A stretch of DNA of 62,341 nt, filler included, from Caldilineae bacterium (GCA_037446815.1; 11 parts of 11 records of this genome joined end to end with filler, not necessarily neighbours in it); one strand, 5' to 3'; shown: positions 51,001 through 57,000, counted from the whole stretch's first letter. A program made the numbers.

Positions 51001-54000
51001 GAGGGCAAGCGGGTGGCCGATTTGCCGCTGCCCAACGATTGCCTCTTGGTAGGCGCCATCCGCGGCGACGACATCCTGATGCCACGGGGCCACACCGTGC
51101 TCCAGGCCCACGATGAGATTCTCGCGCTGGTCCGCACGGAATCGTACACGGTATTTCGCAACCTGTTGGCCAGTCCATCCCGCGCCGAGGCATAGCGGCA
51201 TTGCGTTTTGGCGGGATTCGTAACTCGGTTCCAAACTGTGAGGGCTGGGGTGAGGGCGNNNNNNNNNNNNNNNNNNNNNNNNNNNNNNNNNNNNNNNNNN
51301 NNTTAATTAATTAANNNNNNNNNNNNNNNNNNNNNNNNNNNNNNNNNNNNNNNNNNNNGGCGGTGGGGCGCGGGCGCCCGGCAACAGGCGTGGGCGCGGC
51401 AACCAGCGCGGCCTCGCGCTGCAGCGCCCGCGCGCCCGCCCAAATCAGCCCGGCCTCCACGACGAGCAGCACGGCGATGAGGGCGATGAGTACGTTTCGG
51501 TTGAGGTTGCGTAGTTTGGTCATTGTAGCAGCCTTTGGCCGTTAGCAATCAGCGATCAGCGGTCAGCGATCAGCAGTCAGCGGTCAGCGGATTACCGCTG
51601 GTGGCTGAACGCTGAATGCTGACCGCTACTGTGTTGGCCTCCACACGGCAAGCCCCTCCATGCCCGGGTTGTCCGGGAATGCGAACAGCGCGCCGGTCTT
51701 CGTGTCCAGAATCCACAGGTTGCCGTCCGGCAGGTAGCCCTGCCCTTGCCAGACGAGCGTGTAGGACAAGTAATGCCCATCGGGCGACCACGCCAGGAAC
51801 TGCGGCGAGGACTCCGGGCTGCCGCCGATGGGGAACGCCGTGGCCGCTCCATCCTCCAGCGTGTGGATGTACAGGGTGTGCGCGCCTTCGCTCTCGCTCC
51901 ATACGATGCTGGCCAGCCGCGCGCCATCCGGCGACCAGGCCAAGTCCATGACGTAGCCCCGGTCCAGGAGCGCATAGCCGCCTGTCCCATCGGGCCGCAC
52001 CAGCCGCACGCCGTTGCCTTTCTCCACGTCCGTGTACGCCAGCCACTCGCCCGTCGGCGACCAGCGAACTGTCGTGGCTTCGGGGATGAGCAGGGACAGC
52101 GCCCGCTCGCTCACGTTGTACAGCCAGGCGGCCGTCGGCACTTGCTCCGGCAGGGTCGGCGCGCGACCTGCGGGCGCATAGGCCACCGCGTTGGGAGCGA
52201 CGAAAGCCAACGAGGTGCCATCGGGCGACCAACTTATCGCCACGGCGCTGACGGTTAGCGTGAGCGGGTGGGTTTCGGTGGCCAGCGTCGCGACGTTGGC
52301 GATGATGAGTTCGCCGGTAATGGGGCCGCCTTCCCGGCCGGGGAACACGGTGCGCAGCCACGCGACGCGCCGCCCGTCGGGAGACCAGGCCGGCTCGGCC
52401 CATCCGAAGCCCGACGCCTCGCCCAATTGTCGCTCCACCGGCTTGTCGCCCTCCAGGGTCATCAGATACACGCCGCCGACAGAAGCCCGGCCGCCCCTTG
52501 TGGAAACCTGCGTCGCCAGCCGCACGAAGGCCAGCATCTTGCCGTCGGGCGACCAAGTTGCGAAAGCCTCGTTCTCGGGCGTCTGGGTCAGCGGCTTGAT
52601 GCGCTGGCCCGCGGCGTCGGACAGGAACAGATCCAGTTGGCCCTCGGTGCCGACGGCAACGTAGGCGATTTGCCGCGTGGCCTGCCCACCCGACGGCGGC
52701 CGCAGCCACAGGTACGCCACGCCCGCGGCCGTGAGGATCACGCACACGCCCAGCGCCACGACGATGCGGGCGAGGAGGGTGTTCAGTTTCTCTGGCGTAA
52801 CATCACTGCTCATAGCCGTCAGCAATCAGCAATCGGCATCAATGTTCACTTGCCCACGGTCTTCTTTCATGCCTCTCAGCGTTTGCAGAAATGACGTGAG
52901 CATGCGCTTGACCTCTATGACTCGCTCCTCAAGTTGCTTGTGTTCCGATTCACCCAGAAGACCCAGGTCGCGTGCGAGCAGAAAGTGGTACTCCGTTTCG
53001 CTCGCCGAGCCCATCGCGATTTGGACAAAGCGGGCAAGCTCGGCATCGCCGCTTCTGCCGCAACCCTCCGCCAGATTGGCGGCGATTGAAGCAGAGGCCC
53101 GCCTGATCTGACTGGTCAGTCCATAGGTCTCTGTCTTCGGGAACTCTGCTGTCGCTCTGTAAACCGCTATCGTCAATTCGTGCGCCTTGTGCCACACCTT
53201 CAGCGTCCGGAAATCTCGCACACCCACCTCCTTGAGCAATTCACTGCCGGCCCTCATCCATCCGGGTGCTGATTGCTGATGGCTGACGGCTGATGGCTGA
53301 CCGCTGACTGCTAGTAGTGATACTGCCTGCTCGCCGTGATGAGCGCCAGGTTGACGATTTGGCCGACTTTGCCGATGTGGCTTGCCTGGGCGTCGTCGGG
53401 CGAGCCGCCGCGGAACGCGCTGGGCGCCTGATGCCATGCCAGCGTCGCCGACTTGTCGGCCAGTTCGGCGCAATAGGCGTGGGCGCAGGCCGTGCCCCTG
53501 AGCACCGAAGCGCCGGTAACTTGCGCGCTGCGCTTGAGCAATTCGCTCAACGTGTTGCTCTTGGCCTCGGCGAGGAGCGGGTCTTCACCGCTGCCCACGC
53601 TGCCTAGGTGAATCACCGCGTTGCGCTCCAACGAGCGATAGGGCGTGAACTCGGCCAGATATGTCTGCGCGCCGCTGGTCTCCGAATAGCCCGCGGCCCA
53701 GATGTTGAACAGCACGGTGCGGCGCGGCTTGAACTGCTCGGCGTGCCACAGGCGGGCGATCTCCAGCAGGATGCCCACGCCGGCGGGGCCGTCGCTTGCG
53801 GACACGAACGGGTGGCCCGGATTCGGCTCGGGCATGTCGTAGTGCGTGGACACGACCAGCGCCTCCTTGTCCAGCGACGTGTCGTTTCCGGGCAGGATGC
53901 CGAGGACGTTGTATCCCGTGCGCTCCTGCGGCTCGCCCAGTTCCACCCGAACGCGCACCTGCATCGGCAGCGGCTGGGCGAACCACGGCTTGTCGGGCGA

Positions 54001-57000
54001 GGCCGCCCCGAACGCGTCCGCCTGCGCCTGCAAGTCGGCCACGGTATAGCCCGCCGGTTGCAGCAGGCGGTCGGCGGCCTCGGGGCGGACGTGCAGGATG
54101 GGGAACGTCGGCTTTTCCATGAAGCCGAATTCGCCCGCGGCCCAGTCGGTGTGCGGCGCGGCGTCCTCGGTAACGATGAGGATGGCCTGCGCGCCGCGGA
54201 TTAGGGCCTCGGTGTCAAAGGCCGCGGGCATGTTCTGGCCCAGCACAAGGACGATTTGCCCGCGCAGGTCTAGCCCGCGGAATTCGGGATACCGCACGTT
54301 CTGGCGCGCGAAGCCGACAAAGGTCAGCGGCGCCTGGGCGCTGCCGGAACCGCCGTGCCGATACACCTGCTCGCCAAAGTCCGCGCCGTGCGCCAGGGCG
54401 ACGGTATGCCCGGCTGTCTGGGCCTCCAGAATCGGCACGCTGAGGCGCGGGGCCACCATGCGGACAAGCGGCTGCAGGAATTCCTGGCCGCCTGCCGCGG
54501 GCAACACACCGTAGGCTTCCATCTGCTCGGCGATGTACTCGGCGGCGGCGCGCGCTCCCTCGGTGCCGAAGCCGGGGTCGCCCTGCTGAAGTTCCACGAT
54601 GCGCGCCGCGTGTTCCAGCGCGTGCTCCGCGCTGAACTGGCTTGCCAGTTTCGCGTAGGACACGCCCGGACTGATTTGGCTGACAATGTACCAAGTGAGT
54701 AGGGTGATGGCCGCGACGACCACGACCATGCGCTTGGAGATGATGGCCGCAGTGTTCACCCCGGCCTCGCGCACGATTCTGCGCAGGCCCTCGCCCGTGA
54801 GGTTGAACCCCAGGACGGCCACGAAGAAGGCCATGGCCGGCCAGAACACCATCCACGGCGATGTGCGGATGTAGGCGCGGGCGCCCGCCAGCATGGCGCC
54901 CCATTCGGGCACGTCGGCGATGGCCACCGTCCCGCCGAACCCCTCGGTCTGCGCGCCGCCGCCGATGAACACGCCCACGAATCCCAGTTCGCCCAGGATC
55001 ATCAGCACGGCGCCCATCTCCAGGAGCGCCAGCACCACCAACGCGGGCAGGACATTGGGCAAGATGTGCCGCACGATGATGCCCGTCTCGGTCAGGCCGA
55101 TGACCCGCGCCCCCTCCACAAAGGGCTTCTGGCGCAGGCTCACGAACTCGCTGCGGATGTACTGGGCGATCTCGCCCCAGCCCACCAGACACAACGCGAT
55201 GAGGAACGCCGACAGCCCCTTGCGGATGTCCAGCGCCAGGATGAGAATCATGCCGGTCAGCAGCATGGGCAGCGACGACAGAATCTCCACCATCCCCATG
55301 ATGACGCGATCCGCCAGGCCGCCGGCGCGCCATCCGGCGATGGCCCCCAACCCGAATCCTAGCAGCAGCCGCGCCATCGCCACGAACAGGCACGCCACCA
55401 GGGTGTTGCGCGCGCCGTACAGGAGCAGGCTCAGCACGTCGCGCCCCCACTGGTCTGACCCCAGCGGGAACTCCGCGGAGGGCGGGAACGGCGGGAAGAC
55501 CAATTGGCCGTTGATCATCTCGGACGAGCGCTGGGCCGAGAGGTACGGGTTCTGCGACGCGAAGCGCGGCCCGACGACGGCCACGGCCAGCAGGAACAGC
55601 ACGATGAGCATGCCCGCCACGAACGGGAAGTTCATCGTGATGAGCCGCCAGCGGAACCGCCCCGTGCGGATGGTGGTGTCGGGCGCGGTGCTGTTGCGCC
55701 TCTTGCGTATACGTTCCAGAGCGTCCGAAAGTCGTAACATACCGAAGCCTTCAGCCATCAGCCTTCAGCCGTCAGCAAAAGTTTCCTGATCGCTGACCGC
55801 TGATGGCTGACCGCTAAATCTCTCGTTGCTTCAATCGTGGATCCACATACCGATATGAAATATCCAGCAGTACGTTCACGAGCATAAACGTTAGCCCGAT
55901 GACCAGCGCCATGCCCGCCACGCCGATGTCCTGGCGGTTGCGGATGGCGTCCAACAGGGCCGCGCCAATGCCCGGCCAGCCCAGGAAGTACTCCACCACG
56001 GGCAGGCTTCCCAGCGAGAATCGCAGCGACACTCCCAGCGCCGTCAGGACGGGAACGGCGGCGTTCGGATAGGCGTGGCCGCGCGTTACCATGGTATCGT
56101 ACAGGCCCTTGGCGTGGGCGGTGCGGATGTAGTCCTGCTCCAGAATCTCCGAGAAGGTCATGTAGGCGATGCGGGCGAGATGCGCGAGGGGCCGGGCCGC
56201 CAGCACCAGCGTCGGGATGACGAGATGCGCGTCCCACCCGAATCCCCCGACCGGAACCAACCGCACGCCCGTGGCCCGGAACCAGTAGATTTCCGCAATC
56301 TGGAGCAGGGCCGCGGCGAAGAAACTGGGCACCGACACGCCGATGAGCGTGGCCGTCATCGTGCCGAGCGACACCGGCGAGCGGCGATGGATGGCGGCGA
56401 ACACGCCCACAGGGATGCCGATGAGCCCGGCCACGAGGAGGGAGATGAGCAGTAGCCCCATGCTCTTCGGGTAGGCATCGCCGATCATCTGGGCCACGCT
56501 CACCTGCCGCGAGGAGCGCCCCGAGCGCACGGTGATGGTGCCCATGTCGCCGCGCAGGAGGTTGCCCACGTAGTCCACCGTGGATGTCCAGGCGTATTCG
56601 GCGGCCGGGAGCGGGTTGTACGAAGGCGCGGGCGATGTGGAATTGCGCGCCATGCGCATCCCGAAGAACGCGAAGAACACGATCCCAAGGCTGACCGCTA
56701 GGGTGAACGCCAGACGTCTGATCGCGAATCGGAGCATTGGCTTCTCTTCTGGACTGACCTTTCGCCTAGTATACGCCGAACGGCGTCTGTGGGCAAAGGC
56801 GGTTACAACAAGNNNNNNNNNNNNNNNNNNNNNNNNNNNNNNNNNNNNNNNNNNNNTTAATTAATTAANNNNNNNNNNNNNNNNNNNNNNNNNNNNNNNN
56901 NNNNNNNNNNNNTTGCGAGATTCTTCGCGGCTGCGCCGCTCAGAATGACAGTTCACGGGGCGGTTCGCGGCGATTTGACCCGACGCCGCCCTTTGCCTAC

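What a model noticed while it worked through the whole genome (the two positions that open the first line are those of the whole stretch)
53311..55740. Peptide ABC permeases carrying an extra helix and an outward-facing dead M28 peptidase domain
Two Dpp/Opp-type ABC permease genes (g02473, C189:1953-4382; g02462, C187:1691-5254, itself a DppB-DppC fusion) continue past the permease core into one more membrane helix and a ~450-residue C-terminal part ending in a peptidase-M28 fold that has lost the catalytic glutamate and some zinc ligands. I read it as a receptor-like, non-catalytic M28 domain (as in transferrin receptor) tethered outside the cell to the importer, capturing or presenting peptides/ligands to the transporter in place of, or together with, a free binding protein. 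A pseudo-peptidase as a built-in substrate receptor of an ABC importer would be a new architecture for ABC uptake systems, so far confined to Chloroflexota.
Evidence so far: pfam.tsv: g02473 BPD_transp_1 128-260 + Peptidase_M28 611-740; g02462 BPD_transp_1 110-307 and 476-672 + Peptidase_M28 979-1175. A Kyte-Doolittle scan finds one more hydrophobic helix after the permease core (g02473 res. 330-358; g02462 682-700), which would put the C-terminal part outside if the core ends inside as in DppC (recalled topology). find_homologous_proteins with res. 330-809 of g02473: 140 proteins at E<=1e-3; of the 120 listed about 100 carry PF00528+PF04389 on one chain of ~800-850 aa; every source name that gives a taxon says Chloroflexota/Anaerolineae/Caldilineales. 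Alignment of the last 235 residues of 93 such fused proteins with active-looking M28 domains of this genome (g0 [...]
(Added by a program. Inside this text positions count along the whole contig: they may not be those of the stretch shown here. "Call 12" and the like, gene names such as g00115 and contig names such as C1 are that model's own, and its searches are not shown. The text may have been shortened before it was handed on; [...] marks where a part breaks off. The agent that wrote the report below was given it as the finding of a first reader that could run no searches.)

Follow-up and report, generated by a model that had tools for sequence, protein, structure and literature searches.

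The report
Peptide importer permease with dead aminopeptidase ectodomain
A membrane subunit of a peptide uptake pump carries, on the outside of the cell, a built-in aminopeptidase-like domain that can no longer cut; it lacks the usual separate binding protein and mostly sits beside a giant surface peptidase, which suggests a new way of feeding peptides into such a pump.

Summary
Window 53311..55740 (-) encodes a DppC/OppC-type ABC permease core, a seventh membrane helix and a 452-residue ectodomain. The whole ectodomain is one aminopeptidase unit: an M28 fold with an inserted PA domain (model pLDDT 94; Z 31 to 2ek8).

The catalytic glutamate (Glu151 of Vibrio aminopeptidase) is absent in 119 of 119 family members. 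This copy keeps 2 of 5 metal ligands.

New here: the gene lies in a conserved cluster of DppB-like permease, this fusion, a membrane-anchored PD40 propeller and a giant membrane-anchored multi-peptidase, whose start lies at 51359..51523. No SBP_bac_5 and no Opp-type ATPase gene was found in 0 of 27 fusion loci. In three near-complete genomes, 15 of 16 ordinary DppC-type loci have a binding-protein gene within about 3.5 kb. The NBD-coupling loop is conserved, and a family-specific outer hairpin accompanies the fusion.

Junction-spanning fusions occur in 108 of 401 sampled genomes of the class and in 2 sampled genomes of other classes of the phylum.

Best reading (about 0.4): a built-in, non-cutting peptide-capture module standing in for the binding protein. 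In window-type clusters it is fed by the neighbouring surface peptidase. Function is untested. I found no paper on it.

The parts
55814..56737 (-). DppB/OppB-like ABC permease, 307 aa, partner of the fused subunit
   Evidence: BPD_transp_1 at 107-303, E 4.2e-29. An ortholog lies directly upstream of the fusion in 21 of 21 window-type loci.
53311..55740 (-). Fused gene: DppC/OppC-type permease core, seventh TM helix and PA-M28 pseudo-aminopeptidase ectodomain. 809 aa from ATG 55740; the frame is open from 55758.
54754..55653 (-). Six-helix permease core, residues 36-335 of the 815-aa frame
   Evidence: Aligns with OppC 8z21_B and DppC 8z1v_B. Helices appear in the full-length model.
55054..55125 (-). 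EAA-type coupling loop, residues 212-235 (PFVEGARVIG...RHILPN)
   Evidence: E/D215, G221 and P234 in 66 of 66 members; R230, H231 and N235 in 65 of 66. Aligns with the same loop of OppC.
54910..54963 (-). Family-specific insertion of 16-18 residues in the outer TM5-TM6 loop, predicted as a beta-hairpin (residues about 266-283)
   Evidence: Present in the window gene and in the C187 paralog. Absent from 6 of 6 ordinary DppC-type permeases of the same genome and from solved OppC/DppC. Strands at 268-273 and 276-281.
54676..54735 (-). Seventh transmembrane helix, residues 342-361
53314..54669 (-). Ectodomain, residues 364-815: an M28 fold with an inserted PA domain and a degenerate active site (H639, D641, D656 kept; G690, Y691, G719 and F782/R783 in place of Glu151, Glu152, Asp179, His256)
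   Evidence: Model pLDDT 94.3, pTM 0.92. Foldseek 2ek8 E 1.5e-24. VIA Z 31.0 to 2ek8, 30.4 to 6hc6, 29.7 to 1amp. Residue census.
54085..54483 (-). PA (protease-associated) insert, roughly residues 426-558; boundaries approximate
   Evidence: The beta-rich block 428-557 of the model lies between the N-terminal helices and the M28 sheet. The fold matches cover PA-bearing aminopeptidases over 364-390 aligned residues. Pfam PA is found in the homologous units of the giant proteins.
52826..53257 (-). Inserted small gene, 23S rRNA-intervening-sequence protein family (start inferred at ATG 53257). Not part of the conserved cluster.
   Evidence: PF05635, E 4.1e-37. Flanked by inverted heptamer-repeat arrays. 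Absent at this place in most related loci.
51626..52813 (-). PD40 beta-propeller protein with an N-terminal membrane anchor
   Evidence: PD40 E 1.6e-25. The N-terminal hydrophobic stretch is visible. A PD40 gene lies between the fusion and the giant gene in 14 of 21 loci.
51359..51523 (-). First 55 codons (membrane anchor and start of a Pro/Thr linker) of the giant multi-peptidase. The gene runs off contig C189 and continues on contig C74 (1563 aa).
   Evidence: the translation matches the N-terminus of the 1619-aa ortholog P0124. C74 carries two PA-M28 units.

Best explanation
The DppB-like gene and the fused gene encode the two membrane subunits of an Opp/Dpp-type ABC peptide importer. It still couples to ATPases encoded elsewhere in the genome.

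The DppC-type subunit passes the membrane a seventh time and displays, directly on the outer face, a PA-M28 aminopeptidase unit that can no longer hydrolyse. I read this pseudo-aminopeptidase as the transporter's own substrate-capture module. It would take the place that a free or lipid-anchored binding protein has in ordinary Opp/Dpp systems.

In window-type clusters the module would receive peptides made next to it by the co-encoded membrane-anchored multi-peptidase (one active M28 unit, a HExxH zincin and a second M28-like unit) and the anchored beta-propeller. Digestion and uptake would then be coupled at the cell surface.

Shown: the architecture, the fold, the family-wide loss of the general base, the conserved coupling loop, the co-evolved outer hairpin, the synteny and the missing binding-protein gene.

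Inferred: the outside location, ligand binding, hand-over to the pore and use of shared ATPases.
For: Architecture and fold.

Dead site: Glu151 equivalent 0 of 119 (Gly 101, Ser 11, Ala 5, Val 1, Thr 1); His256 equivalent 6 of 119; Asp117 equivalent 57 of 119. Mapping to solved numbering.

Still a transporter: E/D215, G221 and P234 of the coupling loop in 66 of 66 members.

Integration with the pore subunit: a 16-18-residue outer-loop insertion occurs only in the fused forms and in 0 of 6 ordinary paralogs. Only two residues link TM7 to the ectodomain, and the full-length pTM is 0.83.

No SBP_bac_5 and no Opp-type ATPase gene in 0 of 21 window-type loci. This was checked by Pfam on called ORFs and by six-frame tblastn with 9 SBP and 7 ATPase seeds. 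Likewise 0 of 6 further loci.

In G307, G150 and G357, 15 of 16 ordinary DppC-type loci have an SBP_bac_5 gene within about 3.5 kb. The three fused loci have the nearest one 18, 23 and 28 kb away.

Missing ATPase genes are common for ordinary loci too (9 of 16 have them in cis), so shared ATPases are plausible.

One genome has one DppB gene followed by three tandem DppC-ectodomain genes, the pattern known for alternative receptors.

Synteny: the giant peptidase lies downstream on the same strand in 19 of 21 loci and a PD40 gene in 14 of 21, and in the window itself.

Both the giant and the PD40 protein have N-terminal membrane anchors.
Against: - No binding assay, no expression data and no structure of an assembled transporter exist.
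- The metal site is eroded in different ways across the family. This argues against one conserved metal-dependent way of holding a peptide N-terminus, and the functional surface may lie elsewhere on the domain.
- Orphan SBP_bac_5 genes are plentiful: 5 of 8 in G307 are not beside a DppC-type permease, and G357 has a run of nine. A binding protein in trans is therefore not excluded.
- C187-type fusions and some window-type ones (G163, G414) have no giant peptidase nearby. The coupling to surface proteolysis cannot be the general role.
- I could not inspect model coordinates. I do not know whether the old active-site cleft faces the pore entrance.
- ORFs were called by a simple longest-frame rule, although six-frame searches agree.
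Confidence: 0.4

Rival explanations
1. Ordinary binding-protein-dependent importer. The permease pair uses one or more SBPs and ATPases encoded elsewhere. The dead ectodomain is an accessory, for example a spacer or shield, a cell-envelope contact, or a regulator of SBP access, rather than the receptor.
For: Orphan SBP_bac_5 genes are abundant in these genomes. ATPase genes are often not in cis for ordinary loci either (9 of 16 have them). The metal site is variably eroded, as expected if the old pocket is not the functional site.
Against: Ordinary DppC-type loci keep an SBP gene in cis in 15 of 16 cases, against 0 of 27 fused loci. The ectodomain sits two residues after TM7 and comes with a family-specific outer hairpin on the pore subunit. 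That would crowd the face where an SBP docks; this last point is inference.
Confidence: 0.25
2. Docking scaffold. The dead PA-M28 unit has no ligand of its own. It holds the giant multi-peptidase and/or the PD40 propeller on the transporter, forming a surface digestion-uptake complex through contacts between paralogous domains.
For: The giant gene lies downstream on the same strand in 19 of 21 window-type loci and a PD40 gene in 14 of 21. The ectodomain's nearest relatives outside its own family are the giant's PA-M28 units (about 27-31% identity). All three proteins are tethered to the same membrane face.
Against: C187-type triple fusions stand alone among housekeeping genes in 5 of 5 loci examined. 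G163 has a window-type fusion, but no giant-type protein was found in that genome at E <= 1e-20. G414 has three tandem fusions and no giant beside them.
Confidence: 0.2
3. Residual or altered catalysis. The domain still trims peptides, or performs another reaction, using a different general base. It would process substrates right at the pore.
For: The C187 paralog and the three G414 copies keep all five metal-ligand positions. A PDB title calls the Glu151-to-His mutant of the Aeromonas enzyme 'functional' (2anp, listed). Glutaminyl cyclases share this fold.
Against: The general-base column is Gly, Ser or Ala in 117 of 119 and never Glu, Asp or His. The His256 equivalent is kept in only 6 of 119. 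All five ligands are kept in only 4 of 119. The window gene keeps 2 of 5.
Confidence: 0.07

Closest known systems
OppC/DppC permeases of Opp/Dpp peptide ABC importers (solved: 8z21_B, 8z1v_B, 8wd9_C)
   Same: The six-helix core aligns over residues 36-327 (E 2.6e-29 and 5.7e-28). The EAA-type coupling loop is conserved. A DppB-like partner gene is adjacent.
   Different: A seventh helix plus a 452-residue ectodomain, and a 16-18-residue outer-loop insertion. No binding-protein or ATPase gene in the cluster.
Bacterial PA-domain M28 aminopeptidases: Aneurinibacillus AM-1 aminopeptidase (2ek8), Bacillus subtilis BSAP/YwaD (6hc6), Pseudomonas aeruginosa PaAP (8ac7)
   Same: The same bilobed fold over the whole ectodomain: Z 31.0 with 380 aligned, Z 30.4 with 364 aligned, Z 27.2 with 390 aligned. 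Profile E 4.8e-19 to 2ek8_A.
   Different: Those are secreted active enzymes. Here the general base is lost in the whole family, the metal ligands are eroded, and the domain is covalently part of a transporter subunit.
Non-catalytic M28-fold ectodomains of eukaryotic membrane complexes: transferrin receptor and nicalin. Nicastrin and GPAA1 come from recall and from PMC7522609 (passages).
   Same: An M28-like domain on the outer or lumenal side of a membrane protein, used for something other than peptide hydrolysis. Transferrin receptor Z 26.4; nicalin profile E 5.9e-10.
   Different: No helical dimerisation domain. The model aligns only with residues 121-607 of the receptor. The closest folds are bacterial aminopeptidases. 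The partner is an ABC importer, and the lineage is bacterial.
ABC importers with covalently linked substrate-binding domains: GlnPQ, OpuA
   Same: An extracytoplasmic receptor domain fused to the membrane subunit, so that no free binding protein is needed. Source: abstract of the GlnPQ paper in the listing; the rest is recalled.
   Different: Their fused domains have the periplasmic-binding-protein fold. Here the fused domain is a pseudo-peptidase, attached by an extra helix at the C-terminus of an Opp/Dpp-type subunit. A receptor role is inferred, not shown.

Membership tests
Opp/Dpp-type ABC importer membrane subunit (Pfam BPD_transp_1, OppC/DppC type) | Permease domain above the family threshold and alignable with solved OppC/DppC | tested here: met
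   66.4 bits against a cut-off of 26.4. E 2.6e-29 to 8z21_B.
Opp/Dpp-type ABC importer membrane subunit (Pfam BPD_transp_1, OppC/DppC type) | EAA-type cytoplasmic loop that couples to the ATPase | tested here: met
   E/D215, G221 and P234 in 66 of 66 members; R230 and H231 in 65 of 66. Aligned with the OppC loop. The motif definition is recalled.
Opp/Dpp-type ABC importer membrane subunit (Pfam BPD_transp_1, OppC/DppC type) | Second membrane subunit (DppB/OppB type) encoded alongside | tested here: met
   Window 55814..56737. Present in 21 of 21 related loci.
Complete Opp/Dpp operon (binding protein, two permeases, two ATPases) | Cluster-5 binding protein (SBP_bac_5) encoded with the permeases | tested here: not met
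   0 of 27 fused loci, against 15 of 16 ordinary loci in G307, G150 and G357. The window contig itself is too short to tell.
Complete Opp/Dpp operon (binding protein, two permeases, two ATPases) | DppD/DppF-type ATPases (oligo_HPY) encoded with the permeases | tested here: not met
   0 of 27 fused loci in cis (same calls). Such ATPases exist elsewhere in every genome searched: 5 of 5 and 4 of 4. Ordinary loci also often lack them in cis; 9 of 16 have them.
Active M28 metallo-aminopeptidase | M28 fold and Pfam match | tested here: met
   44.2 bits against a cut-off of 21.3. Z 29.7 to 1amp and Z 31.0 to 2ek8.
Active M28 metallo-aminopeptidase | General-base glutamate (Glu151 of the Vibrio/Aeromonas enzyme) | tested here: not met
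   Gly690 in the window gene. 0 of 119 family sequences have Glu. Numbering checked. The role of Glu151 comes from a reference title seen and from PDB titles.
Active M28 metallo-aminopeptidase | Five ligands of the two zinc ions (His97, Asp117, Glu152, Asp179, His256) | tested here: not met
   The window gene keeps H639 and D656 only. All five are kept in 4 of 119 sequences. The ligand list is from the table in PMC7522609.
Transferrin receptor / glutamate carboxypeptidase II group (M28B) | Protease-like, apical (PA) and C-terminal helical dimerisation domains | tested here: not met
   The first two are present. The protein ends with the M28 domain, and the model aligns with receptor residues 121-607 only. 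The three-domain definition is recalled.
ABC importers with fused substrate-binding domains (GlnPQ/OpuA type) | Fused extracytoplasmic domain of the periplasmic-binding-protein fold | tested here: not met
   The fused domain is a PA-M28 fold throughout residues 364-815. The resemblance is in design, not in descent.

The most novel reading that the evidence does not exclude
A catalytically dead aminopeptidase has taken over the job of the periplasmic binding protein in a type I ABC importer. It holds peptides by what used to be its active-site cleft and feeds them into the pore of the subunit it is fused to. In the window-type operon it also forms, with a giant membrane-anchored multi-peptidase and a beta-propeller, a surface machine that digests proteins and imports the products without letting them diffuse away. 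This would suit filamentous Chloroflexota that live on detrital protein.
Probability: 0.3. Interest if true: 0.85.

Novelty: new variant of a known kind. Interest (0 to 1): 0.62.

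Why it matters
As far as I recall, every characterised type I ABC importer takes its substrate from a receptor of the periplasmic-binding-protein fold, either free, lipid-anchored or fused. A pseudo-peptidase in that role would be a second, independent solution. It would also be a bacterial counterpart of the eukaryotic habit of re-using dead M28 domains as receptor or substrate-recruiting subunits of membrane complexes.

The architecture is not rare. Junction-spanning fusions occur in 108 of 401 sampled genomes of the class. These organisms are abundant in sediments, digesters and hot springs, and protein degradation there matters for carbon and nitrogen turnover.

The family-wide loss of just the general base gives a clear, cheap test: does the isolated domain bind peptides? 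The conserved link to a 1,600-2,300-residue surface multi-peptidase also points to an undescribed digestion-uptake module.

Tried and rejected
- Complex prediction of the ectodomain with the PD40 propeller: no verdict (scores 0.00, 0.41, 0.01; mark 0.32). This is evidence neither way.
- Single-sequence search of the ectodomain against solved chains gave only weak M28 matches (best E 0.042). The profile search and the fold searches were needed.
- Sequencing-run look-up: no RNA holder listed. The best DNA holder has 0.43 of the words. No reads were laid, so there is nothing on expression or habitat.
- I considered that the PD40 propeller might be fused to the longer giants (2,036-2,302 aa). It is not. 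Their extra N-terminal part is a DUF418 membrane domain.
- I considered an orphan Opp-type ATPase pair dedicated to the fusion. In G307 (2 contigs) each of the 3 pairs sits beside an ordinary permease and none is left over.
- A first alignment made with the keep-length option misplaced the His256 column. It was redone with local-pair MAFFT.
- Four full-text literature searches aimed at the fusion or its setting, and a look into PMC8129789 (passages), found no description of a permease-M28 fusion. Subscription journals and supplements were not searched.
The orientation of the old cleft relative to the pore could not be examined.

Full report
WHAT IS THERE

The window is a string of contigs of one metagenome-assembled genome (3.19 Mb, 265 contigs, 93.6% complete). 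Contig C189 occupies window 51359..56812.

On its minus strand lie, in order:
- a DppB-like permease, 55814..56737;
- the gene in question, 53311..55740, with the frame open from 55758;
- a small 23S-rRNA-intervening-sequence-protein gene, 52826..53257;
- a PD40 beta-propeller gene, 51626..52813;
- the first 55 codons of a very large gene, which runs off the contig at 51359.

Pfam places BPD_transp_1 at residues 134-266 and Peptidase_M28 at 617-746 of the 815-residue frame. Residues 36-327 align with solved OppC and DppC chains almost to their ends (E 2.6e-29 and 5.7e-28).

THE EXTRA HELIX AND THE TOPOLOGY

The full-length AlphaFold2 model (66-row alignment, pLDDT 87.5, pTM 0.83) shows the six core helices and then a seventh helix at 342-361. 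Two residues later the ectodomain begins.

In 66 of 66 aligned members the seventh segment is hydrophobic (mean Kyte-Doolittle 1.07-2.20). The preceding loop carries a mean net charge of +3.8 and the following stretch -0.4.

The loop between helices 4 and 5 is the EAA-type loop that contacts the ATPase in ABC importers (established knowledge). It is conserved: E/D215, G221 and P234 in 66 of 66. With that loop inside, helices 5, 6 and 7 put the C-terminal domain outside. This is an inference from sequence and model, not a measurement.

THE ECTODOMAIN

Modelled alone, residues 360-815 reach pLDDT 94.3 and pTM 0.92.

Foldseek's best solved matches are PA-domain aminopeptidases: 2ek8 (E 1.5e-24), PaAP 8ac7 and BSAP 6hc6. 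Transferrin receptor and glutamate carboxypeptidase II/III follow.

VIA-align gives Z 31.0 with 380 aligned for 2ek8, 30.4 for 6hc6, 29.7 for 1amp, 26.4 for transferrin receptor and about 26 for GCPII. A sequence profile agrees: 2ek8_A 4.8e-19, 1amp 2e-12, transferrin receptor 4.7e-12, nicalin 5.9e-10.

The whole 450 residues are therefore one M28 unit with an inserted PA domain. There is no counterpart of the receptor's helical domain.

THE ACTIVE SITE

The giant neighbour's first M28 unit, taken from the 1619-residue ortholog P0124, aligns with the Vibrio/Aeromonas aminopeptidase. Its H, D, EE, D and H fall on chain positions 97, 117, 151/152, 179 and 256.

A table in PMC7522609 (passages read) lists Asp117, Glu152 and His256 for Zn1 and His97, Asp117 and Asp179 for Zn2 of 1amp. 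Its reference list carries the title that names Glu151 in catalysis.

I aligned this unit with 119 family sequences. These were 109 of the 120 proteins listed (those of at least 700 residues; 11 shorter ones were dropped), the window protein, and nine sequences from loci. The columns read as follows:

| Position (1amp numbering) | Residues in 119 family sequences |
|---|---|
| Glu151 | 0 Glu (Gly 101, Ser 11, Ala 5, Val 1, Thr 1) |
| Asp99 | 119 Asp |
| His97 | 90 His |
| Asp117 | 57 Asp |
| Glu152 | 41 Glu, 11 Asp |
| Asp179 | 62 Asp, 10 Glu |
| His256 | 6 His |

The window protein reads H639, D641, D656, G690, Y691 and G719, with no His near 782/783. The C187 paralog and three copies in genome G414 keep all five ligand positions and lack only the general base.

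The pattern is a family-wide, specific loss of hydrolysis followed by patchy decay of the metal site.

THE FAMILY

A search with residues 335-815 found 190 proteins at E <= 1e-3. Of the 120 listed, 111 carry both PF00528 and PF04389. All 13 source names that give a taxon say Chloroflexota, Chloroflexi or Anaerolineae.

A query spanning the junction (residues 250-500) matched 111 of 401 genomes sampled from the class at E <= 1e-15 (68 of 274 high-quality genomes; 71 of 216 genera). In three of these the match stops before the seventh helix at a contig end, leaving 108. One of the 111 is the unpublished genome G345, and the count is 110 of 400 without it.

Open frames fall into a window-like group of roughly 760-1,000 residues and a C187-like group of roughly 1,130-1,470 residues, which are DppB-DppC-ectodomain triple fusions.

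In a sample of 401 genomes across the phylum, four matched: the window's genome, one of the same class and two of other classes. Genomes outside the phylum were not searched systematically.

THE NEIGHBOURHOOD

I examined 21 distinct window-type loci (L012 and L045-L064; L011 is the same contig as L050).

- A DppB-like gene lies directly upstream in 21 of 21.
- A giant gene of 1,584-2,302 codons lies downstream on the same strand in 19 of 21. It has two PA-M28 units around a Peptidase_MA_2/HExxH part.
- A PD40 propeller gene lies between them in 14 of 21.

The giant ortholog P0124 starts with a membrane anchor and a Pro/Thr-rich linker. Its first unit has all six catalytic residues, it carries HEFTH, and its second unit has Lys at the Asp117 position. 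The longer giants begin with a polytopic DUF418 domain instead. The window's PD40 protein also has an N-terminal anchor.

The window's own genome has the full cluster. The minus strand of C189:1-165 encodes the giant's first 55 residues, and contig C74 opens in the same linker and continues for 1,563 residues.

WHAT IS MISSING

No SBP_bac_5 and no Opp-type ATPase gene was found in any of the 21 loci. This holds both by Pfam on called ORFs and by six-frame tblastn with nine SBP and seven ATPase sequences of the window's genome. That search found only four unrelated ABC ATPases, in L045, L046, L060 and L062.

The same holds for five C187-type loci in complete or near-complete genomes and for the G414 locus. 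The total is 0 of 27.

As a control I mapped DppC-type permeases, SBP_bac_5 and oligo_HPY ATPases in G307 (2 contigs), G150 and G357 (1 contig each). Ordinary DppC-type loci have an SBP gene within about 3.5 kb in 3 of 3, 6 of 6 and 6 of 7 cases. The fused loci have the nearest one 18, 23 and 28 kb away.

ATPase pairs are in cis for only 3 of 3, 3 of 6 and 3 of 7 ordinary loci. Shared ATPases therefore seem usual here, and their absence from the fused clusters says little. Orphan SBP genes are also common, including nine in a row in G357. A binding protein in trans cannot be excluded.

SIGNS OF INTEGRATION

Both fused forms of the window's genome carry a 16-18-residue insertion in the outer loop between helices 5 and 6. 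Six ordinary DppC-type paralogs of the same genome lack it, and so do the solved OppC/DppC chains. The model folds it as a hairpin at 268-281. I could not read coordinates, so contact with the ectodomain is a guess.

In G414 one DppB gene is followed by three tandem DppC-ectodomain genes. This recalls tandem alternative receptors.

READING

The best-supported picture is an Opp/Dpp-type importer whose receptor function has moved into a dead aminopeptidase fused to the pore subunit. In window-type clusters the neighbouring anchored multi-peptidase and propeller would supply its substrates. I put this at about 0.4.

The rivals are:
- an ordinary SBP-dependent importer with an accessory ectodomain, 0.25;
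- a pure docking scaffold for the giant peptidase, 0.2;
- residual catalysis, 0.07.

The complex prediction for the ectodomain with the propeller gave no verdict and is not used.

NOVELTY

Database names are 'ABC transporter permease subunit' or 'M28 family peptidase'. Four full-text searches and one paper look-up found no description of the fusion. Subscription journals and supplements were not covered.

Fused receptor domains are known in ABC importers, for example GlnPQ (abstract seen). Dead M28 domains are known in eukaryotic membrane complexes. The combination is not known: a pseudo-peptidase on an Opp/Dpp permease, without a binding-protein gene and tied to a giant surface peptidase. I rate it a new variant of a known kind, with interest 0.62.

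Noticed in passing
window 51529-51627, 52814-52838, 53261-53319: The intergenic stretches of the cluster are arrays of a 7-nt unit (GCTGAYN and its complement). The small intervening-sequence-protein gene (52826..53257) is bracketed by inverted copies that are 92% complementary, with 428 nt between the arms. It looks like an inserted cassette.
   Followed up: partly
L055:6833-7357 (-), L048:8704-9210 (-): In two other genomes a small unrelated gene sits at the same place between the fusion and the next cluster gene. One is another 23S_rRNA_IVP family protein and the other a PDDEXK_3 nuclease. This intergenic spot seems to attract small inserts.
   Followed up: no
window 51359-51523 (-) and G000 contig C74:1-4689: The assembly broke inside the Pro/Thr-rich linker of the giant peptidase gene. 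C189 and C74 are neighbours in the genome.
   Followed up: yes
L011:12844-17703 (P0124), residues about 1440-1460: The second M28 unit of the giant peptidase has Lys where the zinc-bridging Asp117 should be, while keeping EE, D and H. It may also be inactive or mono-metallic.
   Followed up: no
L002:3-1058 (+) (G000 contig C187): Next to the triple-fusion paralog, on the other strand, is an ORF with an Emfourin domain, a family of metalloprotease inhibitors (E 1.1e-7).
   Followed up: no
L070:876-10109 (G414 contig C121): One DppB-like gene is followed by three tandem DppC-PA/M28 fusion genes (893, 883 and 889 aa). All keep the five metal-ligand positions but have Gly at the general-base position.
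   Followed up: partly
L059, L060, L061, L063 (giant genes): The longer giant peptidases (2,036-2,302 aa) start with a DUF418 polytopic membrane domain instead of a single anchor helix.
   Followed up: no
G357:C1:1609740-1630827: Nine SBP_bac_5 genes lie in a row, and the search found no DppC-type permease nearby. They are candidate trans-acting binding proteins.
   Followed up: no
L060:18598-19620 (+): A MalK-like ATPase (ABC_tran plus TOBE_2) lies directly after the giant peptidase gene in one genome only.
   Followed up: no
L051:12871-13662 (+): A heliorhodopsin gene (E 5.7e-101) lies directly downstream of the giant peptidase gene in a genome of the same genus.
   Followed up: no
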